A DNA stretch of 64,000 bases, taken from IMG/VR virus record IMGVR_UViG_3300037193_002017, positions 1 to 64,000 of that record. One strand, written 5' to 3'. Below, in pieces: positions 42,112-63,128 of the stretch; position 1 is the stretch's first letter; the number at the start of each line of letters is the position of its first letter. Under the pieces are notes generated by a model. That model had not been told where the DNA came from, searched no databases, and was given only the letters and a program-made list of their open reading frames with translations. The DNA comes from a virus. A program made the position numbers and the translations under genes.

Positions 42112-42795
42112 ATGATCTGCACCCTGTGCACGCACAACGAGCTCGAGTTCGGCAGCCTCTGCCCCTCCTGCACCCGCGCCACCCACGAACGCCTCACCCG
42201 CCTTCCCCGACTCTGGGCCTCCCTGGGGTCCTGGCTCACCCCCGGCGCCACCGGCAGCGCCCAGTACGGCGGTCGCGTCCGCCTCGCTGAGGCCCCCATG
42301 CCTCTCGACAGCGAGGTCCTGGACCTGATCGCCGAGGGCGGCATCGTCGGCGTCCTCGAGGACTGGCGCACCGCCGTCTACGAGACTCGCGGCTGGAGCC
42401 TGCCGCCCCGCGCGGCCAGCCTCGGTAACCGCGTCACCATCGCGGCCGGCGACCTCGACCACCATCTCGACTGGATCTCACGCTGGTACGCCGGCGAGGC
42501 CTTCGGCTGGGACATCCGCCGTCTCTTCCAGCGCGCCTCCCGCGTCGTACAGCCCGGCCACGACCTCGACCAGCCGAGGCCGACCTTCCTCGGCCACTGC
42601 ATCGCCGTGGACTCCTCCGGGGTGGTGTGCGGGGCGAAGATCTACGCGGACATGCGCACGTCGGTGCAGTGTGAGTGGTGCCTGTGCCCGTACCCGCCCT
42701 CCACCTGGCTGACCCTGCGGCGTTTCCAGCCGGGCAACGAGCACCTGCACGACGAGGACCAGGACGAGCCCGACATGGAGCCGGTGGCCGCCTGA
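42112..42795 (+). CDS. Zinc-binding protein ending the early operon (possible late-transcription regulator domain)
   Basis: N-terminal CxxC...CxxC and C-terminal GHC...CG...CxxC. Confidence 0.65.
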   Translation: MICTLCTHNELEFGSLCPSCTRATHERLTRLPRLWASLGSWLTPGATGSAQYGGRVRLAEAPMPLDSEVLDLIAEGGIVGVLEDWRTAVYETRGWSLPPRAASLGNRVTIAAGDLDHHLDWISRWYAGEAFGWDIRRLFQRASRVVQPGHDLDQPRPTFLGHCIAVDSSGVVCGAKIYADMRTSVQCEWCLCPYPPSTWLTLRRFQPGNEHLHDEDQDEPDMEPVAA

Positions 42796-42837: not shown

Positions 42838-42876
42838 GAGCCCCGCCGCCCCACTTCTCCTGGGGCGGCGGGGCTC
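42838..42876. terminator. Terminator hairpin between convergent genes
   Basis: GAGCCCCGCCGCCCCA...TGGGGCGGCGGGGCTC, 16-bp stem. Confidence 0.8.
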
Positions 42877-42885: not shown

Positions 42886-43146
42886 CTACGCCTCGTCGCC
42901 CTTCTCCAGGTCGGCGCGCTTGCCCTGGCGAATCCCTTCCTGGCGCGCTTTCCAGTACTGGTCGAACCAGGCCACGTCGTACTCCGGGCGCGAACTCCCG
43001 GGTCTGAACACAGGAGCCGGCCAGCCCTCGGCGGGGTTGGTCGCAAGCCGGTGGATGTATGTCCGGCTCACACCCGCTCGCTCTGCGAGTTTCGGGATGG
43101 TCATTGTCTCCCTCTCCGGCTCCTGCCGCTCGGGGGCATCGGGCAT
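42886..43146 (-). CDS. AlpA/excisionase-like HTH regulator divergent from the membrane operon
   Basis: RBS GGAGG before ATG 43146; MTIPKLAERAGVSRTYIHRL....WP.P. Confidence 0.78.
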   Translation of the reverse strand: MPDAPERQEPERETMTIPKLAERAGVSRTYIHRLATNPAEGWPAPVFRPGSSRPEYDVAWFDQYWKARQEGIRQGKRADLEKGDEA

Positions 43147-43160
43147 GCGGACATCCTCCC

Positions 43161-43191
43161 CGAGAAGTGTGGACAATGTCCACACTTCTCG
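43161..43191. promoter_or_regulatory. Perfect 31-bp palindrome, putative operator
   Basis: CGAGAAGTGTGGACA-A-TGTCCACACTTCTCG in the divergent intergenic region. Confidence 0.75.
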
Positions 43192-43295
43192 CTACGGTCG
43201 TTCTCGGCACAACGGAAAACCCCTCGACCCATGCGGAGTTGCAGCTCCGGGCCGAGGGGTGGACCCGTCCTGAAGCGAACGAAGGGAACAGGTCC

Positions 43296-43628
43296 GTGGC
43301 AGACACTACCCAGCCCGATCAGATCGACGTAGCCCTCAAGGTGCTGCTCGCCGAGCCCACCTACGCCGCACAGACCCTCACCAAGCTGGCCGGCCTCCTC
43401 CAACTGGACCCCGGCCAGCCGATGACCGGCCGCGACCTCGAGCGCGCCATCGACATCGCCGCCGAGGCCGTCCTCACCCGACTGCCCGACGTCGTCGCCC
43501 GCGACAGCATGCAGCGCATGTACCGGGCCCTCCCGGACCGGTCGGCCACGGTCACCCGCGGCGAGTACGCCCTCCTCCTGCGCCAGGCTGCCAAGGACCT
43601 CGACGCCGTACGAGGTGACCGCCGATGA
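43296..43628 (+). CDS. Hypothetical protein, first gene of the accessory membrane operon
   Basis: GTG after AAGGGA; TRGEYALLLR. Confidence 0.65.
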   Translation: MADTTQPDQIDVALKVLLAEPTYAAQTLTKLAGLLQLDPGQPMTGRDLERAIDIAAEAVLTRLPDVVARDSMQRMYRALPDRSATVTRGEYALLLRQAAKDLDAVRGDRR

Positions 43629-43834
43629 GCCGGAAACCCACCACGGCCGAGCGCGTCGCCGCGCTCCACCGCCAGTGCGCCGCCGACTACCGCGCCGCCC
43701 ACGCGAACCACGACAGCGTCGACCACCTGGACCTCGTGCACGGCCTGGAGGTCGGCTACGACCCGCACGCCCAGGACCTGAACACGCTGGCCACCGAGTC
43801 CGCCGCCGCACGCCTCGACCACGACGCCGACTGA
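43625..43834 (+). CDS. Small hypothetical protein
   Basis: ATGA overlap. Confidence 0.55.
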   Translation: MSRKPTTAERVAALHRQCAADYRAAHANHDSVDHLDLVHGLEVGYDPHAQDLNTLATESAAARLDHDAD

Positions 43835-43906
43835 ACCCCGCCAGACCGCCGCGCCCCGGCACATCCCCCGGCCGGGGCGCGGCCTCCCCACGCACTGGAG
43901 TCCTTC

Positions 43907-45514
43907 GTGATCCTGGACCAGCCCTACGCGAGAGCGGCGGCCGAGTACTGGCCCACCGCCCTCGCCGCCGGCCTCCTCCTCACCACCCTCGCAGGCCTGT
44001 GCTGGCTGGTCGTGCGGCGTACCAGCGGCGCCGTCCTCACCGCCGGGATCGGCGCGCTCGTCTGCACCGCCTACACCGCCGACACCTCCTGGCGGTTCGC
44101 CGAGCACCGCCTGGACATGGCCGACCACACCGAGCGCCTGGTGATGTTCGCCGCCGGTGAGGTCGCCCTCCTCGCCTGCGCGGTCATGGCCCGAGCCAAC
44201 AAACGCGCCACCGCCACCGAGGACACCGCCGGCACCCCCGGCGTACCCGGCGTACTCGTGTGGACCATCACCGGCGTCCAGGTCATCCCCGCCTACTCCG
44301 AGTCCGGCATCATCGGCGGCACCGTCCGCGCCGTCTTCGGCCCCGTCATGGCCGCCCTGCTCTGGCACCTCGCCATGGGCCTGGAGATCCGCGTCGCCAA
44401 ACCGCAGGCCCTCTCCACCGGACTGCCCGCGCAGATCGGCCACGAGCTGCGCGAACGCCTGCTGTCCTACCTCGGACTGGCGACCCGGAACCGTACCGCG
44501 GAACAGATCAGCCGCGACCGCGCGACCGCCCGCGCCGTACGCCTCGCCTCCCGCCGCCACCGCGGCTGGTGGGCCCGCGCCGCCCTCAAGGCCGCGGTGG
44601 CCCGCTCCGGGGCGGCCGTCGACGGCGAGCGCCGCCACCAGCTCCTGCAGCTGCTCGCCGCACGCCGTACCGCGGCCGAGCTGAGCACCGTACCCGTCGT
44701 CTCGCCGTGGGTAGCCCAGCCCCTACCCGAGCCCTACCCGCCTACCCCGCTCGGCGTCACCGGCGCCGAACTGCGCGCCATGGACCCGATGGACGCCATC
44801 CTCCGGATACACGCCGCACGGCCCGACGCGACGCCCGCAGAGACCGCCGCGCTGTGCACGGAGTACGGCGTACCCGTCTCCGAGACCCTCGTACGGGTAG
44901 CCCTCCGCGCGGGCAACCCCGACCCCACCCCGCCCCCCGCCCCGGCCGTACCCGAGCGGCCCCAGCTCCACGCCGCACCCGCACCCGTGCCCGGCCCGCA
45001 GGACGCGCCCGTACCGGCCCTACCCGAGGCGGCCGAGCACGAGTACACCAGCCCCGGCCTGCACCTCGACCTCATCACCGCCCCCCGGGTACACCCCCAG
45101 GTAGCCTGCGCCGTCCCCGCCGCCCACGCCCGTACCCGGCCCGGCCGCACCGAGGTACACGCCCGCCTACCCGAACAGCCCGAAGCCATCCAGCACACCA
45201 CCGAGGGAGAACGCGCTACCCGGCCCGCGCAGCCCTCTACCCGGCCCGGGGTAGCCGCTCTACCCGAGCCCGTACCCGTACCCGGGGTAGACCCCAGGCC
45301 CGGCCCGGACGCCCTACCCCACCCCACGGGTACGGCGGGTAGGGACGGTGGCGGGGAGCAGGATCCGCTGCTCGACCGGGCCCGCGAGGTAGACGCCGCT
45401 CACCGCCGTACCCACCGCCGCCCGGCCAGCGTCCAGACCCTCAAGAAGGAGCTGCGGGTAGGGCAGAAGAAGGCCCAGCAGCTCCGTGACCTCCTCGCAG
45501 GCGAGCCCGCATGA
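43907..45514 (+). CDS. Multi-pass membrane protein (DUF2637/Spd-like) with Pro-rich linker and C-terminal FtsK-gamma-like wHTH
   Basis: 4-5 hydrophobic segments in the N-terminal ~160 aa; C-terminus DPLLDRA...ASVQTLKKELRVGQKKAQQL. Confidence 0.75.
   Translation: MILDQPYARAAAEYWPTALAAGLLLTTLAGLCWLVVRRTSGAVLTAGIGALVCTAYTADTSWRFAEHRLDMADHTERLVMFAAGEVALLACAVMARANKRATATEDTAGTPGVPGVLVWTITGVQVIPAYSESGIIGGTVRAVFGPVMAALLWHLAMGLEIRVAKPQALSTGLPAQIGHELRERLLSYLGLATRNRTAEQISRDRATARAVRLASRRHRGWWARAALKAAVARSGAAVDGERRHQLLQLLAARRTAAELSTVPVVSPWVAQPLPEPYPPTPLGVTGAELRAMDPMDAILRIHAARPDATPAETAALCTEYGVPVSETLVRVALRAGNPDPTPPPAPAVPERPQLHAAPAPVPGPQDAPVPALPEAAEHEYTSPGLHLDLITAPRVHPQVACAVPAAHARTRPGRTEVHARLPEQPEAIQHTTEGERATRPAQPSTRPGVAALPEPVPVPGVDPRPGPDALPHPTGTAGRDGGGEQDPLLDRAREVDAAHRRTHRRPASVQTLKKELRVGQKKAQQLRDLLAGEPA
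44690..45461. repeat. Dense array of TACCC(G)/(C)GGGTA motifs inside the coding sequence
   Basis: About 24 copies counted by eye in ~780 bp, both orientations. Confidence 0.8.
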
Positions 45515-45882
45515 ACCACGCTGCAGAGCCCCTGGACCTGGCCGCCGCCAGCACCCCCGCCAGCGCGTTACCGCACCGAAGGAACCCCGTGATACTCGCC
45601 GCCCTCGTGGCGCTCGGCCTGGCCCCCGGCCTGATCACCGCCGTACACGTGCACCGCACCCACGGCCCCGTCAGAGCCGCCCTCGCCGCCGCCGGCGTCA
45701 CTCTCGCCCTGGCCGCCGCGCTGCTCGGCGTCCTCCTCGTCTTCCCGCCGCTCGCCATCGCCTGCGCGGCCGGATGCGTCCTGGCCGCGCTCCGCGCCTA
45801 CGACCAGGCGCGCCTCACTGCGGCGAGCAGCTGGCTGAGCTTGGCCGGCCTGTTCGCGTGGTGTGCGAGGTGGCGGTCATGA
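45511..45882 (+). CDS. Small multi-pass membrane protein with TTA codon
   Basis: ATGA overlap; about four hydrophobic segments. Confidence 0.65.
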   Translation: MNHAAEPLDLAAASTPASALPHRRNPVILAALVALGLAPGLITAVHVHRTHGPVRAALAAAGVTLALAAALLGVLLVFPPLAIACAAGCVLAALRAYDQARLTAASSWLSLAGLFAWCARWRS

Positions 45883-46424
45883 GCAAGGACACCCCCATCG
45901 TCCCCACCCGCGTCATCCCCGCCGGCGTACCCCTGCCCGCCCGGCCCCCCGAGCCCGGCGAGGTACCCCCCTGGCGCACCCCGCCTACCCCACCACCGGC
46001 TACCCCGCCCGTACCCCCTCCGCCTGCGCCGCCTGCGGAGCCTCAGGCCGTCGTCGTACGCCACGTCCACGAAGTGGTCCTGGTCGTCCCCGACCCCGAG
46101 CCGGAACCCCGGCTGTGGGAACGCCTCTGGGAACGGCTGTTCACGTGGCGGATGATCGCCGCGATCCTCGCCGCCCTCCTTCCGTGGGCGGCCGGGCAGA
46201 GCCCCGTCGGCCTGTGGTCCCACACCGTCCACCAGGCCCGCGCCGAGGCGGGGATCGTCGCTGCGTACGTCATCGCCGCCGTCGCCGTCGCCGCGACGTG
46301 GGCCCTGGACCGGCGTACCGGCCGTCTCGTGCCCCGCTTCCTCCTTGTCACCAGCTCACTCGGGGCGTTCGGCGTCCTGCACTGGTTCGACCCCATCACC
46401 CTGCTCACCGGAGTCCACCTGTGA
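45879..46424 (+). CDS. Membrane protein with Pro-rich N-terminus (SpdD-like architecture)
   Basis: ATGA overlap; Pro-rich N-terminus then three TM helices. Confidence 0.65.
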   Translation: MSKDTPIVPTRVIPAGVPLPARPPEPGEVPPWRTPPTPPPATPPVPPPPAPPAEPQAVVVRHVHEVVLVVPDPEPEPRLWERLWERLFTWRMIAAILAALLPWAAGQSPVGLWSHTVHQARAEAGIVAAYVIAAVAVAATWALDRRTGRLVPRFLLVTSSLGAFGVLHWFDPITLLTGVHL

Positions 46425-46933
46425 CCGCCACCAACACCCTCACCATCGGCGGCCTCCTCGCCGCCCTGATCATCCTGACCTGCAACCTCTACCCCTGGTG
46501 GACCGGCAACAGGGAGATGAAGCAGCTCTCTTCGTTCGGCAAGGGGTTCGGGGCCGCCGCCTGTGCCGCGGCGTGCCCGGGCGGCATCCTCGGCTGGGCT
46601 CACCACCGATCCGGAACCATCGCCAACGACACCGGCGAGAAGACCAGCACCGCCGTCACCGGCACATCCTCCGCCGCTGGCCTGACCACCGGGCAGCTCG
46701 TCGGCCTCGGCGCCACGGGCGCGGTCGTCGTGGTCATCGCGGTCACCCTCGTCGTCCTGTCGTACAAGGCGGCGGGGAAGAAAGACAAGAAGCGGATCAT
46801 CGGCGGCGCCTTCGTCGGCTCCACGTTCTGCCTCACCGCAGGCGTCGCCGGGGCCCTGTCCTGGCTTCCTGCCGCCCTCAACGCGGCTGGCGGCGGCATC
46901 CTCGCCTTCTTCCAGGGCGCGGGCATCCTGTGA
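46421..46933 (+). CDS. Gly/Ala-rich membrane protein
   Basis: GTGA overlap; 3-4 hydrophobic segments. Confidence 0.68.
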   Translation: MTATNTLTIGGLLAALIILTCNLYPWWTGNREMKQLSSFGKGFGAAACAAACPGGILGWAHHRSGTIANDTGEKTSTAVTGTSSAAGLTTGQLVGLGATGAVVVVIAVTLVVLSYKAAGKKDKKRIIGGAFVGSTFCLTAGVAGALSWLPAALNAAGGGILAFFQGAGIL

Positions 46934-47520
46934 GCCGCCTCGCCTGTATCGCCGACCGTCTCGCCACCGGCTCCCGCCTCCACACCCGCCGCCTCGTGAA
47001 CGGGGCCGTGGCCTGGTGCGCGCGCGGCCGACGCGACGACCTCAAGGGCTGGAAAGCGGCCCTCGGCATCATCGCCCGCCTCGCCCTCCTCGCCGTCGGC
47101 GCGTACGTACTGGCCCGCCTCGTACGGGCCCTGCCGTCCCTCATGTGGCTGCTCACCGGATGGTGGACGCTCGCCTCCTGGCGGGCCGGGAAACCCGCCG
47201 ACACCCCCCAGGAGAAGGCCCCCGAGGGGCGATCGGTGGAGGCCGACCGGGAGGCCGTCCGCACCCTCCTGCTCACGGTCATGGGGGAGGCGGACAAGGT
47301 GCACCTCCGGGCCGTCCTCGCCCACCTCCACCAACAGGGCCAGTGGGAGGGCCGCACGGTCACCGATATGCGCCACCGACTGGCCGCCCTGGACATCCCC
47401 TTCGACCGCTCCGTGAAGGTGGCCGGAATCCCCACCTGGGGGGTCCGCCGAAACGACCTGCAGACCCCTTCCCCAGCCACCGCCGAGGAAGCGTCTCCCA
47501 CCGCGTCTACCGCCGCCTGA
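46930..47520 (+). CDS. Membrane-anchored wHTH protein resembling the TraB C-terminus, no ATPase domain
   Basis: Two TM helices then VMGEADKVHLRAVLAHL...W....DMR.RL..L.I......V......GVRRNDL. Confidence 0.65.
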   Translation: MSRLACIADRLATGSRLHTRRLVNGAVAWCARGRRDDLKGWKAALGIIARLALLAVGAYVLARLVRALPSLMWLLTGWWTLASWRAGKPADTPQEKAPEGRSVEADREAVRTLLLTVMGEADKVHLRAVLAHLHQQGQWEGRTVTDMRHRLAALDIPFDRSVKVAGIPTWGVRRNDLQTPSPATAEEASPTASTAA

Positions 47521-47579
47521 CCTGCACGTCTACCGGCCGTCTACCGCCATCTACCGATGCATCTACCGGCCGTCTACCG
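47504..47579 (+). repeat. Six direct repeats of CRTCTACCG (clt/TRS-like)
   Basis: Copies at 47504, 47527, 47538, 47548, 47560, 47571. Confidence 0.88.
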
Positions 47580-47597
47580 GCCAGAGAGGGGGCCGTC

Positions 47598-47786
47598 GTG
47601 CCCAAGTACACGTACCAGTCCGCGCCCGGGCTGAGGGTCCGCACCACGAACTACCGCGGCAGCGCCCAGGAGTTCGCGGACGCGCTCGCCGAAGACTGCC
47701 GCGCAGATCACGGCGTTGAGCCGGACGTGCGTGTGTGGAACGGCGAAGGGCCGGTAACCGAGCCGCCCGCCGCAACCGCACCGTGA
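47598..47786 (+). CDS. Small hypothetical protein
   Basis: GTG after GAGGGGG. Confidence 0.5.
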   Translation: MPKYTYQSAPGLRVRTTNYRGSAQEFADALAEDCRADHGVEPDVRVWNGEGPVTEPPAATAP

Positions 47787-47877
47787 CGCGTCTCCCATAA
47801 GCCCCGGGGCGGCCGCCCCTCCGCCAAGAAGTACGGCCGCCCCGGTCACCCATCCCGAACGAGACAGGAGCACCATC

Positions 47878-52112: not shown

Positions 52113-52553
52113 GTGCTGTACGTCATCACCGGCCCGCCAGCCGCCGGCAAGTCCAGCTGGATCGAGGCCCGCGCCACAGCCCGTGACATCGTCATCGACC
52201 TCGACCGCATCACCCGCGCCCTCACCGGCCCCGGCGCGCCCCAGTGGAACCAGGACGAGATCGCCATCAAGATCGCGCACCGCGCTCGCTACGCCGCCAT
52301 CGACGAGGCGGTCAAGCACCTGGACCAGGTCGACGTGTACCTGATCCACACCATGCCCAGCACCCGGTGGCGCGCCCGCTACCAGCGCCTCGGTGCTGAG
52401 ATCGTCACCGTTGACCCAGGCGAAGCGGTCGTACGAGAGCGCGTTGCCGCGATGCGATCAGACGAAATGAACCGCGTCGTCACGCGCTGGTACCGCCAGC
52501 ATCGCCGGGGCGAGTCACGCCCCGTCACCACCCAGACAACCCGGCAGTGGTGA
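52113..52553 (+). CDS. P-loop (AAA/kinase-like) protein upstream of terminase
   Basis: Walker A GPPAAGKS; IVIDLD. Confidence 0.85.
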   Translation: MLYVITGPPAAGKSSWIEARATARDIVIDLDRITRALTGPGAPQWNQDEIAIKIAHRARYAAIDEAVKHLDQVDVYLIHTMPSTRWRARYQRLGAEIVTVDPGEAVVRERVAAMRSDEMNRVVTRWYRQHRRGESRPVTTQTTRQW

Positions 52554-52856: not shown

Positions 52857-53159
52857 ATGAGCGATCAACCGAAACGTGTCCGAGCCGGAGCCGTCGCCAA
52901 GGCAACCGCCGCCGAGCTCGATGACCTGGGGCTTGACCCGAAGACGAACGCCGCTGCGGCCTCCGCCCTCCGCCTCGCGAAGGTCATGGACTCGACTGCC
53001 GACCCCAAGGAGCTCGCCGCCGCCGGGCGCGAGCTCCGCCAGACCATGAATACAGCGCGTGGCCTCGCTCCCCCGAAGGCGCTCGGCGACCGGATCGACC
53101 AGCTGGCCGACCGGCGCGAGAAGCGGCTCTCCCCTCGGGCCGCTAAGGGCACCGCGTGA
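52857..53159 (+). CDS. terS: Terminase small subunit
   Basis: RBS GGAGG; ALRLA..MD, A...ELR, D..D.L..RR; GTGA overlap with the large subunit. Confidence 0.8.
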   Translation: MSDQPKRVRAGAVAKATAAELDDLGLDPKTNAAAASALRLAKVMDSTADPKELAAAGRELRQTMNTARGLAPPKALGDRIDQLADRREKRLSPRAAKGTA

Positions 53160-54718
53160 TCGGCTGCCAGACACCGCGGATCCTGTCCGTGCCGTGGTAC
53201 CGACGCGTGGACACGGGGCGGTGGGACGGCACCGAGGACCAGGTCGCGCTGGACTTCCGCTCGCCCGCGGGCACGGAGTGCATCGAGCTCGCGGAGGAGG
53301 CGGGCCTCGACCTCGACATCTGGCAGCAGCTCGCCCTGCACCACAGCCTCGACGAGGATGCCGAGGGCCGGTGGACGTCGCTCGAGGTCGTCCTCAACAT
53401 CGCGCGCCAGAACGGCAAGGGCGGATACCTCGAGGCCAGACAGATCGGCGGCGTGATCCTCTTCGGGGACGAGCTCGTCATCCACACCGCGCACCAGTTC
53501 AACACCGCGCAGGAGAGCTTCCTTCGGCTCGACCGGATCTTCGAAGGGTCCGCGTCACTGAGTCGCCGCATCAAGCGCGTACGCCGCTCGCATGGCGAGG
53601 AGGGCTTCGAGTTCTTCAACGGCGCCAGGATCCGTTTCCTGGCGCGGGGCGGGGACAGCGGCCGCGGGTTCTCCGGTGACCTGGTCATCATGGACGAGGC
53701 CATGAAGCTGCGGGCCGCGCCCGTGGGCGCCCTCATGCCGGTGCTGTCCGCCCGCCGCAACCCTCAGCTCGTGTTCACCGGGTCGGCCGGTCTGGGGGCT
53801 GAGAGCGAGCAGCTGGCGCTGCTGCGGGCCCGTGCGATGGCGGAGGAGGGCGGGCCGGACCCGTCTTTGACGTACCTGGAGTACTCGATCGCGCCGCACG
53901 TGAAGGAGTGCCCGCGCGATGAGGACGGCCGGGTCGTGTGCACGGCTCATGACGACCGGGACGACGAGCGGTCGTTCGCCCGGGCCAACCCGGCGCTGGG
54001 CATCCGGATCCGCACGTCGTACGTACAGCGGGAGATGCGGGGCATGCGTGAGGACCTGTTCGACCGTGAGCGCCTCGGTGTGGGGGACTACCCGGAGGTC
54101 AGCGACGAGACGTGGCAGGTCATCGCGAAGGAGGCCTGGGAGGCGCTCACGGACGCCAGCTCGCGTCCGACGGACCCGGTGGCGTTCGCCATCGACACCA
54201 ACCCGGAGCGGACGTGGACGGCCATCTCGGTGGCCGCCGAGTCGTCGGGCGGTGGCCGGCACATCGAGGTCGTTGCCCACCAGCCCGGCACGGACTGGGT
54301 CGTGGACTGGGTTGCTGAGCGTGACGAGAAGTGGAAGCCATGCGCGTGGGTCATCGACGAGGGCGGTCCGGCCGGGTCGCTTGTGCCAGCGCTGCGGAAG
54401 AAGCTGGCCGGGAAGCACCCGGTGGGCAGCGACCTGGGGCGCGATCGCTTCCTGGTGTCGCCAAAGGTGCGGGAGATCGTGCAGGCCTGCGGCGCCTTCT
54501 ACGACCGGGTGAAGGACGGCTCACTCGCCCACATCGGCCAGTCACCGCTGGCGACCGCTCTCGCCGGCGCGAAGAAGCGCGACCTGGGTGATGCGTGGGC
54601 GTGGGCACGGCGCAGTGAGGGTGTGGACGTGAGCCCGCTGGTGGCCGGGACGTATGCGTTGTGGGGCTGGGAGAAGTTCCACGACGAGGAGCCGGAAGGG
54701 GCGCCGAACCTGTGGTGA
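53156..54718 (+). CDS. terL: Terminase large subunit
   Basis: ARQNGKG, GRGFSGDLVIMDEA, ANPALG, AFAID, DVSPLVA. Confidence 0.95.
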   Translation: MIGCQTPRILSVPWYRRVDTGRWDGTEDQVALDFRSPAGTECIELAEEAGLDLDIWQQLALHHSLDEDAEGRWTSLEVVLNIARQNGKGGYLEARQIGGVILFGDELVIHTAHQFNTAQESFLRLDRIFEGSASLSRRIKRVRRSHGEEGFEFFNGARIRFLARGGDSGRGFSGDLVIMDEAMKLRAAPVGALMPVLSARRNPQLVFTGSAGLGAESEQLALLRARAMAEEGGPDPSLTYLEYSIAPHVKECPRDEDGRVVCTAHDDRDDERSFARANPALGIRIRTSYVQREMRGMREDLFDRERLGVGDYPEVSDETWQVIAKEAWEALTDASSRPTDPVAFAIDTNPERTWTAISVAAESSGGGRHIEVVAHQPGTDWVVDWVAERDEKWKPCAWVIDEGGPAGSLVPALRKKLAGKHPVGSDLGRDRFLVSPKVREIVQACGAFYDRVKDGSLAHIGQSPLATALAGAKKRDLGDAWAWARRSEGVDVSPLVAGTYALWGWEKFHDEEPEGAPNLW

Positions 54719-54963
54719 ACGACGACCAGGCGGAAGACGCGAACAGCCGTGACCGAGCGGGCCGTTGGCTGGTGATCCTCGAGACGGTGTTTGTCCTGGT
54801 CATCGTGGCGGGCGTCGCGCTCGTGCATGTGCCGGGCGCGCTGATGCTGGCCGGGGTGCTGGGGGTGCTGGCGTGCGAGCGCGCGCTGGCCCGGCGCCAG
54901 GCCGAGGAACGTGTCCCTGGGGAGGGGCGCGGTGGGGAAGCGGCGGGAGGTGAGCGGCAGTGA
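54715..54963 (+). CDS. Small membrane protein between terminase and portal
   Basis: Two TM helices; GTGA overlaps. Confidence 0.65.
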   Translation: MNDDQAEDANSRDRAGRWLVILETVFVLVIVAGVALVHVPGALMLAGVLGVLACERALARRQAEERVPGEGRGGEAAGGERQ

Positions 54964-56279
54964 CAGCTGGGTTGTTCGGCCTGTTCGACGGGCGGTCGAG
55001 GAGGGGGCTGGAGAGCCCGGCGCAGCCGCTCACCTCCGCCGCGCTGGCGGAGTACCTCGGTGGCGTGCAGTCGGACGCCGGGGTGCCGGTATCGGAGACG
55101 ACCGCACTGCGGGCGTCACCAGTGTGGCGGGCTGTGGCGCTGATTGCCGGGGTGTCGGCGGCGCTGCCGCTGCCGACATACAAGGAGGGCACGCGAGAGA
55201 AGCAGGCCGCTGACCTGCTGAAATACCCGCATCCCGATCTCACGCCGGTGGAACTGTGGCGGTTCGCGTACCTGTACCGGGTGCTGTGGGGCAACACGTA
55301 CATCCAGAAGGTGCGCGACGGGGCCGGCCAGATCCGGGAGCTGTGGCCGGTGTCCGCCGATCGGGTCCGCGTGGATCGGATCAAGCCGGACGAGGCGAAC
55401 CCCACCGGCAAGCTGTTTGACGTCGTGGACGACTGGGGCGTGCACCACGTGTGGACGCCCCATCAGATGCTGCACATCCCTGGCCTGGGGTACGACGGCC
55501 TCACCGGCTGCTCACCCGTACGGCTGGCCACACAGGGCATCGGCCTGGCGCAGGCCGCCGAGAAGTCGGCGGCCCGTCTGTTCGGGTCGGGCAACATGAT
55601 CGGCGGCGTGCTGCAGACCGAGCAGCGCCTCGACCCGGACCAGGCCGCCCGGCTGAAGGAACGCTGGAAGGCCAAGATGTCCGGCGTCCACAACAGCCAC
55701 GAGATCGCCGTGCTCGATTCGGGCGCCAGCTTCAAACCAGTGCAAATGCCGAACACCGACGCCCAGTTCCTCGAGAGCAGGCAGTTCCAGGTCACGGAGA
55801 TCGCCCGCATGTTCGGCGTGCCGCCGTTCCTGCTGATGTCCACCGAGAAGAGCACCAGCTGGGGGACGGGGCTGGAGCAACAGGCGCAGGGCTGGGTCAC
55901 GTTCGACCTCAACCCGACATGGCTGACGCCGACCGAGCAGCGCGTGACCAAAGAGCTGCTGCCACGGTCGCTGTACGCGAACTACCAGATGGGCGGCCTG
56001 CTGCGCGGCGACTCGGCGGCGAGAGCCACGTTCTACCGGGCAATGCGCGACATCGGCGCCTACAGCGCGAACGACATCCGGGCGCTCGAGGAGATGCCGC
56101 CGCTGACGGAGAACGGCGACGTCTACCTGCAGCCCATGTACATGGCACCGCTCGGGTCCAACCCCCTCGACCCTGGCGGGGAGGCGCCGGCGGGCTCGAA
56201 CCGGGCGCGGGCGGCCGCGCTGATGGCGGAGGCACAGCGTCTGTTGCAGACGCCTGACGATGCTGAGGAAGGCACCTGA
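54960..56279 (+). CDS. Portal protein (HK97 family)
   Basis: GN.Y, LH......DGL.G.SP, DAQFLE.R, EIARMFGVPP, N..RA.E..P. Confidence 0.95.
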   Translation: MTAGLFGLFDGRSRRGLESPAQPLTSAALAEYLGGVQSDAGVPVSETTALRASPVWRAVALIAGVSAALPLPTYKEGTREKQAADLLKYPHPDLTPVELWRFAYLYRVLWGNTYIQKVRDGAGQIRELWPVSADRVRVDRIKPDEANPTGKLFDVVDDWGVHHVWTPHQMLHIPGLGYDGLTGCSPVRLATQGIGLAQAAEKSAARLFGSGNMIGGVLQTEQRLDPDQAARLKERWKAKMSGVHNSHEIAVLDSGASFKPVQMPNTDAQFLESRQFQVTEIARMFGVPPFLLMSTEKSTSWGTGLEQQAQGWVTFDLNPTWLTPTEQRVTKELLPRSLYANYQMGGLLRGDSAARATFYRAMRDIGAYSANDIRALEEMPPLTENGDVYLQPMYMAPLGSNPLDPGGEAPAGSNRARAAALMAEAQRLLQTPDDAEEGT

Positions 56280-57514
56280 TGAGGACTCTGACGAGGACGA
56301 CGACCGAGGAACACCGCCGTCTGCCGTTGTCCACGGCAGAGGTCGCCATCCGGGCGGCCGACGGCGACGACGGAGGCGAGCGGTTCAAGGGCTACGCCGC
56401 GGTGTTCAACTCCCGTACCGCGATCGGGAATCCGTTGAGGTGGGGGTTCTACGAGGAGATCGCGCCCGGGGCGTTCACGAAGACGCTGTCAGAGGGCGAT
56501 GCGCGGATGCTCATCGACCACGACTCGTACTTCGTCGTATCGAGGGTGTCGGCCGGCAGCCTGGACCTGGCCGAGGACGGGCGCGGCCTGGCCGTCGACT
56601 CCGCCCTCGACGCTGGCCTGTCGTACGTCAACGACCTGAAGGCCAACGTCCGGAACAAGAACATCACCGGCATGTCGTTCGGGTTCTACGTCGTCAAGGA
56701 CGACTGGACCTTGGAGAAGGTGGAGACCTCCGACGGACAGACCGCCGAGGTCGAGATCCGCCGGATCCTCGAGGTTCGCCTCATCGAGGTGTCCGCGGTG
56801 ACGTTCCCCGCGTACGAGGACACCGAGGCCGAACTCGCCAGCGTCCGCTCCGCGCTCCTGCGGCGCGGCGACCAGCAGGCCATCGAGCAGCGCGCGAAGT
56901 ACCGACCGGAGCTGCGGGACCTCCTGCAGCTCGTCGGCGAGGAGACGCCCGCCGAGGACACCCCGGCGGCCCGTACGGCCCCGGCCGTCGAGGAGCGGGC
57001 CGCGCTGGCGGTCCACTCCACCAGTACGTCGGATGCGGCGTGGGACGGTCCGGCGAACTCGAAGGATCTCCCCCAGGAGGAGTCGGCGCTGAGGATGGCG
57101 CACGCCTGGGTGGACCCCGAGGGCGACGCCGACACCAAGAGCAGCTACCGGTTCATCCACCACTTCGTGGGCGTGGACGGCGACGTCGGCGCCGCCTCAA
57201 CCGTCGCGTGCACCACGGCGATCGGCGTCCTCAACGGCGCCCGCGGCGGCACCACCATCCCCGACGAGGACCGCGAGGCGGTCTACAAGCACCTGGCCCG
57301 GCACCTGAAGGACGCCGGGCTGAAGGCGCCAGAGCTGAAGGCAGTTGGCAGCGAGCCGGGTGAGTCCACTCGCGAGACCAGCACACCGGAGACCGACCCC
57401 GCGGACACGGACGACACCGAGCCGGCAGAGACCACTCGGAGCGACCTCGACGCGCGCGTACTCCGGATGAAGGGCCTGGCCGCCCGCTTCGGGCTGGCCG
57501 CGCCCAGCTCGTAA
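56279..57514 (+). CDS. Prohead protease (HK97/U35 type) with extra C-terminal domain
   Basis: GYAAVFN, E.I.PGAF, DHD, MSFGF, L.EVS.VTFPAY. Confidence 0.92.
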   Translation: MRTLTRTTTEEHRRLPLSTAEVAIRAADGDDGGERFKGYAAVFNSRTAIGNPLRWGFYEEIAPGAFTKTLSEGDARMLIDHDSYFVVSRVSAGSLDLAEDGRGLAVDSALDAGLSYVNDLKANVRNKNITGMSFGFYVVKDDWTLEKVETSDGQTAEVEIRRILEVRLIEVSAVTFPAYEDTEAELASVRSALLRRGDQQAIEQRAKYRPELRDLLQLVGEETPAEDTPAARTAPAVEERAALAVHSTSTSDAAWDGPANSKDLPQEESALRMAHAWVDPEGDADTKSSYRFIHHFVGVDGDVGAASTVACTTAIGVLNGARGGTTIPDEDREAVYKHLARHLKDAGLKAPELKAVGSEPGESTRETSTPETDPADTDDTEPAETTRSDLDARVLRMKGLAARFGLAAPSS

Positions 57515-57527
57515 CCCGTACTCACCC

Positions 57528-57560
57528 CGAAGGCCCGTGACCAGCTGGTGCGGGCCTTCG
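57528..57560 (+). terminator. Hairpin between protease and capsid genes
   Basis: CGAAGGCCCG...CGGGCCTTCG. Confidence 0.6.
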
Positions 57561-57582
57561 CCATGTCTGAAAGAGGAAGCAC

Positions 57583-58827
57583 ATGAGCGAGCAGCTCAGG
57601 CGGCTCATCGACGAGCAGAACACCCTGTGGCAGCGGATGCAGGACATCCAGACTGCCGCCGAGGGCGAGAAGCGCGACCTTACCGCCGAGGAGCGGCAGA
57701 ACTGGGACCAGGCGGAGGAACGGCTCACCGTCGTCTCCGGGGACATCGAGCGCCTCAACCGCATGGCCCAGATGTCGAAGATCGACCGCAGCCAGATCGC
57801 CGTCACCACCGGCGAGCCGGAGGGCCGCCGCGGCGGCGACCCCGGGGAGCAGGCGAAGCGGTACGCCGAGACCTTCGGGGCGTACCTGCGCGGCGGCATG
57901 GACCGGCTCACGCCGGACCAGCGGAACCTGATGATGGACCACGAGGTCGACCTGCGCGCGATGAGCGCGGGCATCGACACCGCCGGCGGGTTCACCGTGC
58001 CGGACGAGTTCCGCAACATCATGACCGAGACGATGAAGGCATACGGCGGCCTCCTCGCCCTGGCCGACGTCATCACGACCTCGACGGGCGCCGACCTGAA
58101 GTGGCCGACCAACGACGACACCGGCAACGAGGGCGAGATCCTCGGCGAGAACGACGAGGCCGGCGAACAGGACCTCAGCGTCGGCGGCCGGACGCTGAAG
58201 GCGTACACCTTCTCCTCCAAGCAGGTGAAGCTGTCCATGCAGCTCCTGCAGGACTCGGCGTTCAACCTCGAGACGTGGGTGCCCAGGAAGCTCGGCGAGC
58301 GCATCGGCCGCCGCGCAGCCCGCGCGTTCACCACCGGCACCGGCGTCGACCAGCCCGAGGGCCTGGCCACCAGCGCGGCCGTCGGCAAGCAGGGCGCCTC
58401 CGGCCAGACCACGTCGGTCATCTACGACGACCTGGTCGACCTCGAGCACTCCGTCGACAGCGCGTACCGGCCCAACGGCAGGTACCTCATGCACGACTCG
58501 ACCCTGAAGGTGATCCGCAAGCTGAAGGACACCCAGGGCCGCCCGCTGTGGGTTCCGGTCCCGGCCCCCGGCTTCCCTTCGACGATCAACGGCTTCGAGT
58601 ACTCGCTCGACAACTCGATGCCCACCCCGGCCGCGTCCGCAAAGACGATCGCGTTCGGCGACTTCAAGGCCGGCTACGTCATCCGCCAGGTGCAGAGCGT
58701 GCAGACGCTGCGCCTGAACGAGCGGTACGCCGAGAAGCTGCAGGTCGGTTTCCTGGGGTTCGCCCGCCTCGACGGCATGATCCAGGACTCGTCCGCGATC
58801 CGCATGTACCAGCACGCCGCCAGCTGA
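57583..58827 (+). CDS. Major capsid protein (HK97 family, N-terminal coiled-coil delta domain)
   Basis: AGGFTVP.EF, S.QLLQDSA, GTG..QP.GL, LKD..GRPLW, FGDF, R.DG. Confidence 0.95.
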   Translation: MSEQLRRLIDEQNTLWQRMQDIQTAAEGEKRDLTAEERQNWDQAEERLTVVSGDIERLNRMAQMSKIDRSQIAVTTGEPEGRRGGDPGEQAKRYAETFGAYLRGGMDRLTPDQRNLMMDHEVDLRAMSAGIDTAGGFTVPDEFRNIMTETMKAYGGLLALADVITTSTGADLKWPTNDDTGNEGEILGENDEAGEQDLSVGGRTLKAYTFSSKQVKLSMQLLQDSAFNLETWVPRKLGERIGRRAARAFTTGTGVDQPEGLATSAAVGKQGASGQTTSVIYDDLVDLEHSVDSAYRPNGRYLMHDSTLKVIRKLKDTQGRPLWVPVPAPGFPSTINGFEYSLDNSMPTPAASAKTIAFGDFKAGYVIRQVQSVQTLRLNERYAEKLQVGFLGFARLDGMIQDSSAIRMYQHAAS

Positions 58828-58842
58828 CCGACACCCGCTCGT

Positions 58843-58874
58843 ACGGGCCCAGGAACTCGGGTTCCTGGGCCCGT
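58843..58874 (+). terminator. Hairpin after the capsid gene
   Basis: ACGGGCCCAGGAAC-TCGG-GTTCCTGGGCCCGT. Confidence 0.75.
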
Positions 58875-58899
58875 CGGCATCCACAGGAAGGAGCGCGTC

Positions 58900-59304
58900 G
58901 TGAAGGACGCGTACAGCAGCCTGCTCGTCAAGAACACCCTGACGCCGGCGGCGCGGACGGCGTCGGCGAACGGCACGACGGTGGACCGGGCCGAGGACTC
59001 CTCGATGTTCCAGGACGCCCTGGTCGTCATCCCCGTCGGCACGGTGACCGACGGAACCCACACCTTCGAGGTGCAGCACTCCGACGACAATTCGTCCTGG
59101 TCGGCCGTTGCCGACGCCGACCTGCAGGGCACCGAGCCCGCCGTCACCTCCAGCACGGACGAGACCGTGTACGAGCTCGGCTACAAGGGCGACAAGCGCT
59201 ACCTGCGTGTCGCGGTGACCGTGGCCAGTGCCACGACCGGCGGCGTGTACGGCGCCCACATCGTCCTTGCCAACCCGCGTGTGGCCCCGGTGGTGCGGAA
59301 CTGA
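58900..59304 (+). CDS. Virion structural protein (head decoration-like)
   Basis: RBS AAGGAG; Q.SDD.S.W, GY.G.KRYLRV. Confidence 0.72.
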   Translation: MKDAYSSLLVKNTLTPAARTASANGTTVDRAEDSSMFQDALVVIPVGTVTDGTHTFEVQHSDDNSSWSAVADADLQGTEPAVTSSTDETVYELGYKGDKRYLRVAVTVASATTGGVYGAHIVLANPRVAPVVRN

Positions 59305-59963: not shown

Positions 59964-59974
59964 GGGGGTGAGCG

Positions 59975-60787: not shown

Positions 60788-61254
60788 TGGCGACCTCCGC
60801 AGTACCGGGCGCCATCAGCGCCCTCCTGACCATCCTGCAGGCGTCCGCCGAGCTCGACGACGTGATGGTCATCGACGGGCCGCCGACCGACGACGTGGCC
60901 ACCGAGGACATCCTCGTCGTGGGCTGGTCGCCGCAAGGCGAGGCCGCCGCCGAGCTGGTGCAGAACTTCAACGCGGCCGGCGCCCGCACCAGGGACGAGG
61001 ACTTCACCCTCACCTGCTACATCGATTGCTGGTCCGGGGACTTCAACTTCGCCACCGTACGGGGCCGGGTGTTCGAGGTCCTCGGCGTCGTCGAGCAGGA
61101 GCTACGCGCCACCAGCTCCGACCCCACGGCACCGAACCTGAATGGCGCGGTGATGTGGGCGCACTTGACCCGGGGCGTGCTGCAGCAGTCCACCAACGAC
61201 CAGGGAATCAGGGCATCGCTGACATTCACCTTGTCCTGCCACGCCCGCCTGTAG
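60784..61254 (+). CDS. Tail terminator/completion protein
   Basis: V.DGPP, P.L.G.V motifs; gene order. Confidence 0.7.
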   Translation: MMATSAVPGAISALLTILQASAELDDVMVIDGPPTDDVATEDILVVGWSPQGEAAAELVQNFNAAGARTRDEDFTLTCYIDCWSGDFNFATVRGRVFEVLGVVEQELRATSSDPTAPNLNGAVMWAHLTRGVLQQSTNDQGIRASLTFTLSCHARL

Positions 61255-61318
61255 CCCCCTAACTCGAGGAGCCCGCATGGTGCGGGCTGTTCGCCATGCC
61301 CAAGCGAAGGAGGACCCT

Positions 61319-61603: not shown

Positions 61604-61606
61604 TCC

Positions 61607-62593: not shown

Positions 62594-62605
62594 GGTGAGG
62601 CCCTC

Positions 62606-63118: not shown

Positions 63119-63128
63119 GAGCACCACC

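What the first reader, a model, noticed from the sequence alone, without database searches (positions are those of the whole stretch)
42886..47786. Candidate undescribed system: prophage operon of motor-less FtsK/TraB-like membrane anchors with their own repeat arrays
Seen: an operon whose five membrane-protein genes (43907-47520) are translationally coupled, placed behind a perfect palindrome and a divergent HTH gene. The first and last of these proteins have TM helices plus a C-terminal winged-helix-like domain, neither has a Walker A/B motif, and each is associated with a TACC-core repeat array. Known: Streptomyces plasmids and AICEs move dsDNA using the FtsK-like TraB, its clt 8-bp repeats and Spd membrane proteins. 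Inference: this phage, which also has terminase, portal, capsid and tail genes, keeps the membrane and DNA-recognition parts of that machinery without the ATPase. It could tether or partition excised phage DNA at membranes or cross-walls, spread it within the mycelium, borrow a motor in trans, or jam incoming conjugative elements.
Basis: partly seen in the sequence, partly recalled or inferred. Interest (0 to 1): 0.88.

Follow-up and report, generated by a model that had tools for sequence, protein, structure and literature searches.

The report
Motor-less DNA-docking membrane module in phage
A Streptomyces prophage carries a conserved operon of five membrane proteins, two of which probably clamp the phage's own DNA to the membrane through private arrays of short DNA words; it resembles plasmid 'spread' machinery but never includes the DNA pump, and what it does is untested.

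Summary
Five genes (43907-47520) overlap by 4 nt each. They lie behind a perfect 31-bp palindrome and a divergent small HTH gene. None has a Walker motif.

The last protein (g8, 196 aa) models as a TM hairpin plus a cytoplasmic winged helix. Its stop codon sits inside a rigid array of 7-8 heptamers (TCTACC) spaced 10-12 bp apart. The g8+array pair is seen in about 100 of the 116 related prophage and phage loci examined, including phages VWB and Kromp.

In divergent relatives the whole array switches word (TCTCCC, ACTACR, CCTCCC, TCTCCG), and the wing-tip residues of g8 switch with it. That argues for a cognate protein-site pair.

The first protein (g4) belongs to a family found next to TraB on Streptomyces plasmids and on plasmid-phage ZL12. 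Its linker-coding DNA carries a dense word cloud (SSTACCCG) written with rare codons. Relatives carry different words.

No TraB/FtsK was found: none in the record, and none within 10 kb in 45 loci. So this is a stable motor-less design, not a decayed remnant.

g8 shows no homology to TraB or FtsK-gamma, so the link to TraB is analogy only. SpdB2-like genes in actinophages were already noted in the literature. The g6-g7-g8+array core appears undescribed. The scan's notes list TraB-bearing phage modules on other DNA.

The parts
42838..42876 (.). Perfect 16-bp-stem hairpin between the upstream + strand gene (42112-42795) and the 3' end of the HTH gene. It is the likely two-way terminator that marks the left edge of the module.
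   Evidence: (I4)
42886..43104 (-). Divergent small HTH regulator, 72 aa from the ATG at 43104 (alternative GTG start at 43185). MerR/excisionase-like.
   Evidence: homologues on the minus strand upstream of the cassette in many loci
43161..43191 (.). Perfect palindrome CGAGAAGTGTGGACA-a-TGTCCACACTTCTCG in the divergent intergenic region; operator-like.
   Evidence: I6; the same palindrome in L027, and the core TGGACA-N-TGTCCA next to the HTH gene in L007, L019 and L022
43239..43628 (+). g2, soluble protein of unknown function (phrog_28251). Start codon uncertain.
43625..43834 (+). g3, 69-aa acidic protein, coupled to g2 by a 4-nt overlap.
43848..43883 (.). 13-bp-stem GC hairpin between g3 and g4. 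Possibly an attenuator; there is no room for a promoter before g4.
   Evidence: (I10)
43907..45514 (+). g4, 535 aa. Multi-TM N-domain (about residues 14-156), helical cytoplasmic part, small helical domain 286-336, disordered Pro-rich linker, and a C-terminal three-helix HTH (487-531). Spd-class protein whose relatives lie beside TraB on plasmids.
44665..45463 (.). Dense cloud of SSTACCCG/CGGGTASS words on both strands, inside the linker-coding part of g4 and written with rare GTA/CTA codons.
   Evidence: the same word cloud in L011, L017, L018 and L045, other words in L021, L035, L027 and in plasmid homologues
45511..45882 (+). g5, 123 aa, 2-3 TM (phrog_34269). This slot is variable or tiny in other loci.
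45879..46424 (+). g6, 181 aa. Conserved Pro-rich N-part plus 2-3 TM (phrog_15316). Core gene.
46421..46933 (+). g7, 170 aa, 4 TM. Conserved CAAACPGG motif and a basic loop (phrog_16379). Core gene.
46930..47520 (+). g8, 196 aa. N-terminal helix, TM hairpin (42-86), linker, cytoplasmic winged helix (101-178), and a disordered tail encoded by the first array units. Core gene.
47494..47579 (+). Phased array of seven TCT[AC]CC heptamers, plus a variant CTGACC over the stop codon. Units lie at -27, -15, (-4), +8, +19, +29, +41 and +52 relative to the g8 stop. Consensus unit CRTCTACCG.
   Evidence: conserved in 46 loci and most of 71 further loci
47598..47786 (+). g9, 62-aa ORF between the array and the terminator. 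Present in only a few loci (for example L025, 86% identical).
47804..47845 (.). 12-bp-stem GC hairpin, the likely operon terminator. In most related loci this type of hairpin follows the array directly.
   Evidence: (I14)

Best explanation
The operon encodes a membrane complex that docks the phage's own double-stranded DNA to the cytoplasmic face of the membrane through two independent, sequence-specific anchors.

Anchor 1 is g8. Its TM hairpin holds a winged helix in the cytoplasm. Copies of this domain bind head-to-tail, about one helical turn apart, to the 7-8 heptamers that straddle the stop codon of its own gene. The beta-hairpin wing reads the variable bases.

Anchor 2 is g4, an Spd-class multi-TM protein. 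Its HTH domain or domains read the dense word cloud written into the linker-coding part of its own gene.

g5, g6 and g7 are integral-membrane partners. The divergent HTH protein controls the operon through the palindrome.

The module is the phage counterpart of the Spd ('spread') part of Streptomyces plasmid transfer systems, without the TraB pump. Its most likely role is to hold, and hand over, replicated or excised phage DNA at membranes or cross-walls of the mycelium.

Shown here: anatomy, conservation, absence of a motor, and co-variation of array word with wing sequence. Inferred: actual DNA binding, complex formation and the biological role.
For: 1. g8 model: N-helix, TM hairpin 42-86, and an H-b-H-H-b-b domain at 101-178. 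All fold hits for that domain are winged helices. Basic residues before TM1 place the domain in the cytoplasm.

2. In 46 loci the array has the same register relative to the g8 stop. Spacings are 12/23/12/10/12/11, and 34 of 46 loci have 7 copies. Downstream genes differ between loci.

3. Divergent g8 relatives carry arrays of other words at the same place, with all units changed together.

4. The wing tip co-varies with the word:
- (T[WR] or A[WY])GV[RH]R goes with TCTACC.
- [TK]RGV[LSA]x goes with TCTCCC.
- TRGVTR goes with CCTCCC.
- RSGVSR goes with TCTCCG.
- VTVGIHR goes with ACTACR.

5. In the tree, the ACTACR clade is nested with L028 and L118. These share helices 1-3 but keep the TWGVRR wing and a TCTACC array.

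6. In most loci the array lies between the stop codon and a terminator hairpin, so it is not a promoter element.

7. g4 cloud: GTA makes up 14 of 19 Val codons in the linker, against 38 of 921 in other genes. Words lie on both strands and in all three phases.

8. g4-family and DUF2637-type first-slot genes in other loci and plasmids carry their own dense, lineage-specific words. The g4 word changes while the g8 array stays TCTACC.

9. g4 relatives lie next to TraB-type ATPases on plasmids and on plasmid-phage ZL12.

10. First-slot genes of VWB and Kromp are DUF2637. The commonest first-slot family matches pIJ101 SpdB (hhalign 72%, E 3.5e-5).

11. Thoma et al. 2015 (PMC4447253) report that spd genes are translationally coupled, and that SpdB2 is a DNA-binding, pore-forming membrane protein with homologues in actinophages phiC31 and VWB.
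Against:
- The winged-helix match is generic: Foldseek E at least 0.16, VIA Z 5-6.
- The word/wing co-variation rests on few independent switches (about 3-4), on a poorly resolved 95-column tree.
- Some GVRR proteins sit beside mixed A/C arrays.
- For g4 no clear co-variation between HTH residues and word was seen. On TraB plasmids the word cluster could be read by TraB rather than by the g4-like protein.
- g4 could not be tied to DUF2637/SpdB by profile comparison.
- On the one plasmid with the cassette, the 7 x 12-bp array lies near rep, not next to the g8 homologue.
- Nothing shows when the operon is expressed.
Confidence: 0.5

Rival explanations
1. Mobilisable phage. The word cloud, the array or both are clt-like sites read by a TraB/FtsK-type pump supplied in trans by a resident plasmid, an AICE or the host. 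The membrane proteins are only Spd-type helpers, so phage DNA is pumped between compartments or cells by a borrowed motor.
For: - g4 relatives and their word clusters lie beside TraB on plasmids and on ZL12.
- clt loci are clusters of short direct repeats read by the TraB C-terminal wHTH (PMC4447253; PMC4170104).
- Some cloud words equal GGGTAGGG/CCCTACCC, which resembles the FtsK KOPS consensus GGGNAGGG (sequence; consensus from my own knowledge).
Against: - Words change in concert between TraB-less prophage lineages within one host genus. That points to a reader encoded in the cassette, not to a host or foreign pump.
- The g8 array co-varies with the g8 wing.
- No TraB within 10 kb in 45 loci.
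Confidence: 0.13
2. Membrane tether for the phage's own replication, segregation or carriage into spores, in the manner of phi29 p16.7 or phi29 parS hitch-hiking, with no movement across cross-walls.
For: - The same anatomy fits: membrane anchors plus cis sites.
- The cassette sits between the early/replication region and the packaging genes in phage lineages with different virion modules.
- Arrays of 7-10 helically phased direct repeats bound by small DNA-binding proteins are typical of type II/III plasmid centromeres (my own knowledge of ParR-parC and TubR-tubC).
Against: - No partition NTPase is present.
- An integrated prophage needs no partition.
- The first-slot genes are of the Spd class, whose only known role is spreading.
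Confidence: 0.17
3. Exclusion module. The membrane complex blocks DNA entry of superinfecting phages or of conjugative elements. The arrays serve another purpose, such as autoregulation.
For: - It is a membrane-protein operon in a temperate phage under its own divergent regulator.
- RNA-library contigs identical to parts of it exist in a plant metatranscriptome (weak, DNA carry-over not excluded).
Against: - No match to any PADLOC defence family for g4-g8.
- Exclusion does not explain two conserved, co-varying cis arrays on the phage's own DNA.
- Exclusion does not explain the same cassette on a 10-kb plasmid in the tra/spd position.
Confidence: 0.1
4. The array is an iteron-type replication origin, and g8 is a membrane-bound initiator or origin-binding protein.
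For: - Direct repeats lie inside or next to the gene of a winged-helix protein, as with lambda O/ori and iteron plasmids (my own knowledge).
- On plasmid NZ_CP109464 the 7 x 12-bp array lies in the lower-GC region next to rep.
Against: - No AT-rich unwinding element is nearby. In the phage loci the array is followed at once by a GC hairpin or a ribosome-binding site.
- The heptamer and 11-bp period are unlike typical 17-22-bp iterons.
- The phage has a separate replication region upstream.
Confidence: 0.05
5. A decayed remnant of a TraB-Spd transfer module under no selection.
For: Relatives of g4 normally sit beside TraB.
Against: - More than 200 g8 clusters exist, and the 120 best listed are 173-207 aa. 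A sample of 26 has 34 invariant residues.
- No longer fused forms were found.
- g6-g7-g8 are intact and coupled in nearly all loci.
- The array register is fixed.
Confidence: 0.02

Closest known systems
TraB-clt of Streptomyces conjugative plasmids (pSVH1, pIJ101)
   Same: A membrane-anchored protein with a C-terminal winged helix, and a cluster of short direct repeats at or after the 3' end of its own gene. Specificity classes differ between elements. A divergent regulator controls the operon (PMC4447253).
   Different: g8 has no FtsK/SpoIIIE ATPase domain and no Walker motifs. It has no detectable sequence similarity to TraB/Tra or FtsK-gamma. It is 196 aa rather than about 650-770 aa. Its repeats are heptamers in a rigid 8-position register. 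The regulator is a small MerR/Xis-like HTH, not GntR.
SpdB/SpdB2 spread proteins (DUF2637; Pfam 38 SpdB_N + HTH_SpdB_C)
   Same: A multi-TM N-domain plus a C-terminal HTH, as first gene of a translationally coupled membrane-protein operon. Homologues were already noted in phages phiC31 and VWB. VWB gp24 and Kromp gp82, which occupy the same slot, are DUF2637. The commonest slot family matches pIJ101 SpdB.
   Different: The window's g4 belongs to a different family with no significant profile match to DUF2637-type proteins. It is tied to Spd by position next to TraB on plasmids and on ZL12 and by language-model neighbours only. SpdB2 is reported to bind DNA non-specifically, whereas g4-family genes carry dense specific words.
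TraB-bearing plasmid-phages (pZL12/ZL12 type) and other actinomycete phages with full TraB-clt-Spd modules
   Same: A tailed temperate actinomycete phage carrying plasmid-type DNA-transfer genes. ZL12 has a g4 homologue (pZL12.73c) in a GntR-controlled block.
   Different: Those phages carry the FtsK-like pump (pZL12.71c). This lineage never does, and instead has the g6-g7-g8+array core, which ZL12 lacks.
Centromere-binding proteins on phased direct repeats (TubR-tubC, ParR-parC) and OmpR/PhoB/SARP-type winged helices on 11-bp heptamer repeats
   Same: Seven to ten short direct repeats about one helical turn apart, bound head-to-tail by a small DNA-binding domain. This is an analogy from my own knowledge.
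   Different: No partner NTPase is present. The binder is an integral membrane protein. No sequence or specific fold match was found.

Membership tests
TraB / FtsK-SpoIIIE DNA translocases | FtsK_SpoIIIE P-loop ATPase domain with Walker A and B | tested here: not met
   No Walker A/B in g2-g9. No Pfam hit. No PF01580 in the whole record.
TraB / FtsK-SpoIIIE DNA translocases | N-terminal membrane anchor | tested here: met
   g8 TM hairpin at 42-86; g4 multi-TM N-domain.
TraB / FtsK-SpoIIIE DNA translocases | C-terminal wHTH related to the TraB wHTH or FtsK gamma | tested here: inconclusive
   g8 has a winged-helix fold. It has no FtsK_gamma Pfam hit and no HMM similarity to three TraB-type proteins. 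Its fold hits are generic winged helices only.
TraB / FtsK-SpoIIIE DNA translocases | Cognate cluster of short direct repeats (clt/TRS) at or near the 3' end of the gene | tested here: met
   Array at 47494-47579, conserved in register in 46 loci. Binding itself is not testable here.
SpdB / SpdB2 (DUF2637, SpdB_N + HTH_SpdB_C) | Sequence membership in DUF2637 or SpdB_N | tested here: inconclusive
   g4 has no Pfam hit. 0 of 42 family members hit DUF2637. hhalign against slot-mates gives 1-4% probability. Atlas neighbours include DUF2637 and SpdB clusters at 0.84-0.93, which are leads only. The newer SpdB models are not in the local Pfam copy.
SpdB / SpdB2 (DUF2637, SpdB_N + HTH_SpdB_C) | Multi-TM N-domain plus a cytoplasmic C-terminal HTH | tested here: met
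   AF2 model of g4.
SpdB / SpdB2 (DUF2637, SpdB_N + HTH_SpdB_C) | Lies in a translationally coupled membrane-protein operon next to TraB on conjugative elements | tested here: met
   Coupling. g4 homologues lie beside TraB/DUF87/FtsK-like genes on two plasmids and on ZL12. In this phage, TraB itself is absent.
SpdB / SpdB2 (DUF2637, SpdB_N + HTH_SpdB_C) | Needed for intramycelial spreading / pock formation | not testable with these tools
   Needs genetics.
Partition centromere systems (ParR/TubR type) | Adjacent partition NTPase (ParM, TubZ, ParA) | tested here: not met
   No P-loop or other NTPase motif in the operon. No Pfam hits.
Iteron-type replication origin | AT-rich unwinding element beside the repeats | tested here: not met
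   The sequence after the array is a ribosome-binding site or a GC hairpin.
Known anti-phage defence systems (PADLOC) | Match of any component to a defence family | tested here: not met
   No hit for g4-g8. There is only a weak 21-residue hit of the HTH protein to mad1.

The most novel reading that the evidence does not exclude
The cassette (first-slot Spd-like protein, g6, g7, g8 and its array) is a self-sufficient apparatus that moves or distributes double-stranded DNA within or between hyphae without a dedicated FtsK-like motor. Both temperate phages and a TraB-less 10-kb Streptomyces plasmid would use it. On that plasmid the cassette sits under a GntR 'Kor' regulator, exactly where tra/spd genes normally lie.
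Probability: 0.15. Interest if true: 0.85.

Novelty: new variant of a known kind. Interest (0 to 1): 0.64.

Why it matters
Streptomyces plasmids spread through the mycelium with Spd proteins whose mechanism is still unknown, and always in the company of the TraB pump. This module keeps an Spd-class protein, adds three conserved membrane proteins and never has the pump. It gives two apparently sequence-specific DNA-membrane anchors with predictable sites.

It occurs in two cultured phages, VWB and Kromp, so Spd-type function can be studied apart from TraB. It also makes it possible to test whether tailed phages of mycelial bacteria place or move their DNA at membranes and cross-walls.

The wing/word co-variation offers a small recognition code that can be checked by swapping residues. 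If the module does nothing of the kind, it is still one of the commonest unannotated operons of Streptomyces prophages.

Tried and rejected
- Longer, fused forms of g8 were sought (344-2000 aa) and none found. The tool calls this weak evidence.
- The g8 profile found nothing in PDB sequences below E 0.2.
- g8 was not found on any PLSDB plasmid by tblastn. One divergent homologue was found only by HMM.
- Foldseek of the full g4 model found nothing.
- NCBIfam gave nothing for g4-g8, VWB gp24, Kromp gp82 or the plasmid g4 homologue.
- pIJ101 SpdB, SpdA and KilB have no model in the local Pfam copy.
- hhalign of the g4 family against DUF2637-type slot-mates was not significant.
- The sigma-70 promoter and terminator scan was uninformative in this GC-rich DNA.
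- Whole-plasmid k-mer counts were not informative until restricted to the g4-like genes.
- RNA reads: three runs sharing the holder's species label gave 0-3 partial reads, so they are no test. Only short contigs of a plant metatranscriptome matched.
- The protein atlas could not read the window's own g4, so a homologue was used.
- The small-terminase/pac-site reading of the array was rejected. Loci with different terminase and virion modules share the same array, and the array keeps a fixed register to the g8 stop.
- The downstream-promoter reading was rejected. In most loci a terminator follows the array directly.
- A literature search for DUF2637 found nothing relevant. The phiC31 genome paper is not held.

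Full report
**Setting.** The window is part of a 77-kb IMG/VR virus record. Its G+C is about 70%, and every relative found is from Streptomyces. Portal (54960-56279) and major capsid (57583-58827) genes confirm a tailed phage. Genes were called from third-position GC.

**Anatomy.**
- A perfect 16-bp-stem hairpin (42838-42876) closes the upstream genes.
- Next comes a small minus-strand HTH gene (42886-43104). The ATG at 43104 has a good ribosome-binding site. Hits to HTH and excisionase-type families are weak.
- The divergent intergenic region holds a perfect 15+1+15 palindrome (43161-43191).
- On the plus strand follow g2 and g3, which are soluble and coupled, then a GC hairpin (43848-43883).
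- Five genes then overlap by 4 nt each: g4 43907-45514, g5 45511-45882, g6 45879-46424, g7 46421-46933 and g8 46930-47520.
- All five have hydrophobic segments. None has a Walker A or B motif, and the whole record has no FtsK_SpoIIIE domain.
- Pfam and NCBIfam are silent on g4-g8. PHROGs places g5-g8 in families of unknown function.

**g8 and its array.**
- An AlphaFold model from 26 relatives (mean pLDDT 74.5) gives an N-terminal helix, a TM hairpin (42-86), a disordered linker, and a domain H101-118, E123-125, H126-136, H144-153, E159-164, E167-173. That is the order of a winged helix.
- Foldseek and VIA-align return only winged-helix proteins for this part: PadR, GntR-type, RAP30, LOTUS, ESCRT-II and ORC. 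Scores are low (E at least 0.16, Z 5-6), so the fold is supported but no family is.
- Heptamers TCT[AC]CC stand at 47494, 47506, 47529, 47540, 47550, 47562 and 47573. Four adjacent TCTACC pairs occur here and none in 100 shuffles.
- The first two units are in frame and encode the disordered tail ...S-T-A-S-T-A-A-stop.

**Conservation of the array.**
- g8 has more than 200 clusters (90% identity level), and the 120 best listed are 173-207 aa. A sample of 26 shares 34 invariant residues. No longer forms were found.
- In 43 genome loci, plus phages Kromp and VWB, the array is present in the same register relative to the stop: -27, -15, a variant CTGACC over the TGA, then +8, +20, +30, +42, +53. 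Thirty-four of 46 loci have seven copies. The unit consensus is CRTCTACCG.
- What follows the array differs between loci. In most it is a GC hairpin. In this window a 62-aa ORF is inserted first. The array therefore belongs to g8, lies in the 3' end of the transcription unit, and is not a promoter element for downstream genes.
- About 22 loci continue with a small terminase, a T4-type large terminase, an SPP1-type portal and a minor capsid protein. This window has an HK97-type portal and capsid. The same array thus serves phages with different packaging machines, which argues against a pac/cos role.

**Co-variation.** Seventy-one further loci from IMG/VR include g8 relatives at 35-50% identity. 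Several carry, at the same place, arrays in which all units have changed together:
- ACTACR in L072, L091, L095 and L102;
- TCTCCC in VWB, L044, L100, L105, L106, L108 and L119;
- CCTCCC in L080;
- TCTCCG in L109 and L110.

The tip of the predicted wing changes with the word:
- (T[WR] or A[WY])GV[RH]R with TCTACC;
- [TK]RGV[LSA]x with TCTCCC;
- TRGVTR with CCTCCC;
- RSGVSR with TCTCCG;
- VTVGIHR with ACTACR.

In a tree of the domain, the ACTACR clade is nested with L028 and L118. These share helices 1-3 but keep the TWGVRR wing and a TCTACC array. This amounts to three or four switches, not many, and the tree is weakly resolved. Some GVRR proteins also tolerate mixed A/C arrays. Even so, a concerted change of all units within one host genus requires a reader that differs between phage lineages. 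g8 is the only DNA-binding candidate that is always linked to the array.

**g4 and its cloud.**
- The model (pLDDT 75.5) shows long membrane helices from 14 to 156 and a helical cytoplasmic part up to 261.
- It then shows a small confident helical domain (286-336), a disordered Pro-rich stretch (346-482) and a very confident three-helix HTH (487-531) with no wing.
- The N-domain defines a large family: 449 representatives at E 0.001 or better.
- It has members on actinomycete plasmids. On a 17-kb S. canus plasmid the order is GntR, traA, traB, a 175-aa gene, then the g4 homologue. On an S. goshikiensis plasmid it is an HTH regulator, the g4 homologue, then a DUF87 ATPase. HMM E-values are about 1e-50.
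- In plasmid-phage ZL12 the homologue pZL12.73c lies two genes before the FtsK-like pZL12.71c, under a GntR regulator.
- g4 is therefore a membrane partner of TraB modules, of the Spd class by position. Profile comparison does not tie it to DUF2637-type proteins. Language-model neighbours include DUF2637 and SpdB clusters, which are leads only.
- Inside the linker-coding DNA, TACC/GGTA reaches 18 per 400 bp against a window mean of 1.5. Sixteen of the window's 32 SSTACCCG words lie in 44242-45462.
- The words lie on both strands and in all three codon phases. They force GTA for 14 of 19 valines, against 38 of 921 elsewhere. The signal is therefore in the DNA, not in a peptide repeat.
- Four other g4-type prophage genes carry the same word: L011, L017 (23 copies), L018 and L045.
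- Three carry other words: CGCATCC in L021 and L035, CGGCTGC in L027. The plasmid homologues have GACCGCGACAC (24 copies, running into the downstream spacer) and CGGAACC.
- DUF2637-type first-slot genes have their own words too: GCGGACAC, GTCCGGA and, in VWB, GCACCCG.
- The g4 word differs between loci whose g8 array is the same TCTACC. The two arrays therefore have different readers.
- In TraB-less loci the only protein that varies with the cloud is g4 itself. I could not show residue-level co-variation.

**The module as a whole.**
- g6, g7 and g8 are the invariant core in nearly all of the first 45 loci compared.
- The first slot holds g4-type (8 loci), DUF2637-type (VWB gp24 E 1e-35, Kromp gp82 E 1e-6) or other membrane proteins.
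- The commonest slot family matches pIJ101 SpdB (hhalign 72%, E 3.5e-5).
- No TraB-like gene lies within 10 kb in 45 loci.
- A small HTH gene on the opposite strand is common upstream. The palindrome or its core recurs beside it in five loci.
- One 10.3-kb circular Streptomyces plasmid, also deposited as a dimer, carries the following:
  - rep and a GntR gene;
  - divergent from the GntR gene, the operon DUF2637, a 62-aa gene, a g6 homologue (E 3e-12), a g7 homologue and a g8 homologue (E 3e-21);
  - no TraB.
- The same plasmid has seven 12-bp units GT[AT]CCACCGTG near rep. Whether these are the g8-type site or rep iterons is open.

**What is known.**
- Thoma et al. 2015 (PMC4447253) describe spd operons as translationally coupled, and SpdB2 as an oligomeric, pore-forming, DNA-binding membrane protein that interacts with TraB.
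[quoted passage not shown] Spd-like genes in phages are therefore not new.
- clt loci are clusters of 8-bp repeats read by the TraB wHTH.
- Earlier notes of this scan report several actinomycete phages with complete TraB-clt-Spd modules. One has a membrane protein beside a second dense word array. I verified only the ZL12 case.
- I did not find any description of the g6-g7-g8 core with its phased array, of its word/wing classes, or of its consistent lack of a pump.

**Reading.**
- Most likely the operon builds a membrane complex that holds the phage's own DNA through two specific anchors. It would be the phage version of the Spd half of plasmid transfer.
- The role beyond docking is inference. 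Candidates are hand-over across cross-walls, membrane-bound replication or segregation, carriage into spores, or use of a pump supplied in trans.
- Exclusion, origin and promoter readings fit the data less well (see rivals).
- Calling g8 'TraB-like' is an analogy of layout, not a family assignment.

**Limits.**
- No binding or expression data exist. A plant metatranscriptome holds contigs identical to parts of the HTH gene, g4, g7 and g8, but DNA carry-over cannot be excluded.
- Membrane topology of g4 was not resolved.

Noticed in passing
L049 (plasmid NZ_CP109464.1) 523-4713 and 7261-7339: A 10.3-kb circular Streptomyces plasmid has rep, a GntR gene and, divergent from it, DUF2637, a 62-aa gene and homologues of g6, g7 and g8. 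It has no TraB. It also has seven 12-bp units GT[AT]CCACCGTG beside rep. NZ_CP109459.1 is a dimer of the same plasmid.
   Followed up: partly
L047 7865-8528 (S. canus plasmid); L046 9697-10500 (S. goshikiensis plasmid): On TraB-type plasmids the g4-like gene carries its own dense word cluster: GACCGCGACAC x24, and CGGAACC x19. Each cluster runs into the downstream spacer, so these may be the plasmids' clt loci.
   Followed up: partly
first-slot genes of L001, L002, L009, L012, L015, L043 and others: DUF2637-type first-slot genes also hold enriched lineage-specific 7-mers. Examples: GCGGACAC (8-12 copies per about 0.95 kb), GTCCGGA, GCACCCG in VWB gp24, CGGCTCAC, AGGACGC and CGTCTCA.
   Followed up: partly
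L011 13427-13624: There is a tblastn match to pIJ101 KilB (38% over 66 aa, E 1e-6) about 3.4 kb downstream of g8 in one prophage. This is another plasmid spread/kil-type gene in these phages.
   Followed up: no
window 47518-47528 and the same place in nearly all loci: The stretch TGACCTGCACG directly after the g8 reading frame is almost invariant. It holds a variant unit (CTGACC) in phase with the array. Another first-reader note says CTGACCTG recurs in the att region (24402, 24556, 24648); I did not check this.
   Followed up: no
window 44721-45462: Some cloud words are CCCTACCC or GGGTAGGG. These match the E. coli FtsK KOPS consensus GGGNAGGG (recalled from my own knowledge). No strand polarity is seen.
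   Followed up: no
window 51567: A second copy of the palindrome half-site GTGTGGACA lies in the spacer before the gene at 51804.
   Followed up: no
window 43021-43153, 44227-44379, 45154-45316, 46804-46998, 47280-47534: Contigs from an rRNA-depleted plant metatranscriptome are identical to these pieces. One runs on into a slightly different TCTACC array, so it comes from a close relative. This hints that the operon and its regulator are transcribed in nature, but DNA carry-over cannot be excluded.
   Followed up: partly
window 1-17000 versus 53000-64000: The window holds tail and lysis-type genes at its left end, and terminase, portal and capsid genes at its right end, with lower-GC DNA at 24-28 kb between them. 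Other notes read this as two prophages stacked at one tRNA site. The tail genes may therefore not belong to the phage that carries the cassette.
   Followed up: no
window 52113-52553: The only Walker A motif (GPPAAGKS) between 27 and 53 kb lies in a 146-aa protein just upstream of the terminase region. Its homologues recur downstream of the cassette in L012, L024, L027 and L036.
   Followed up: no
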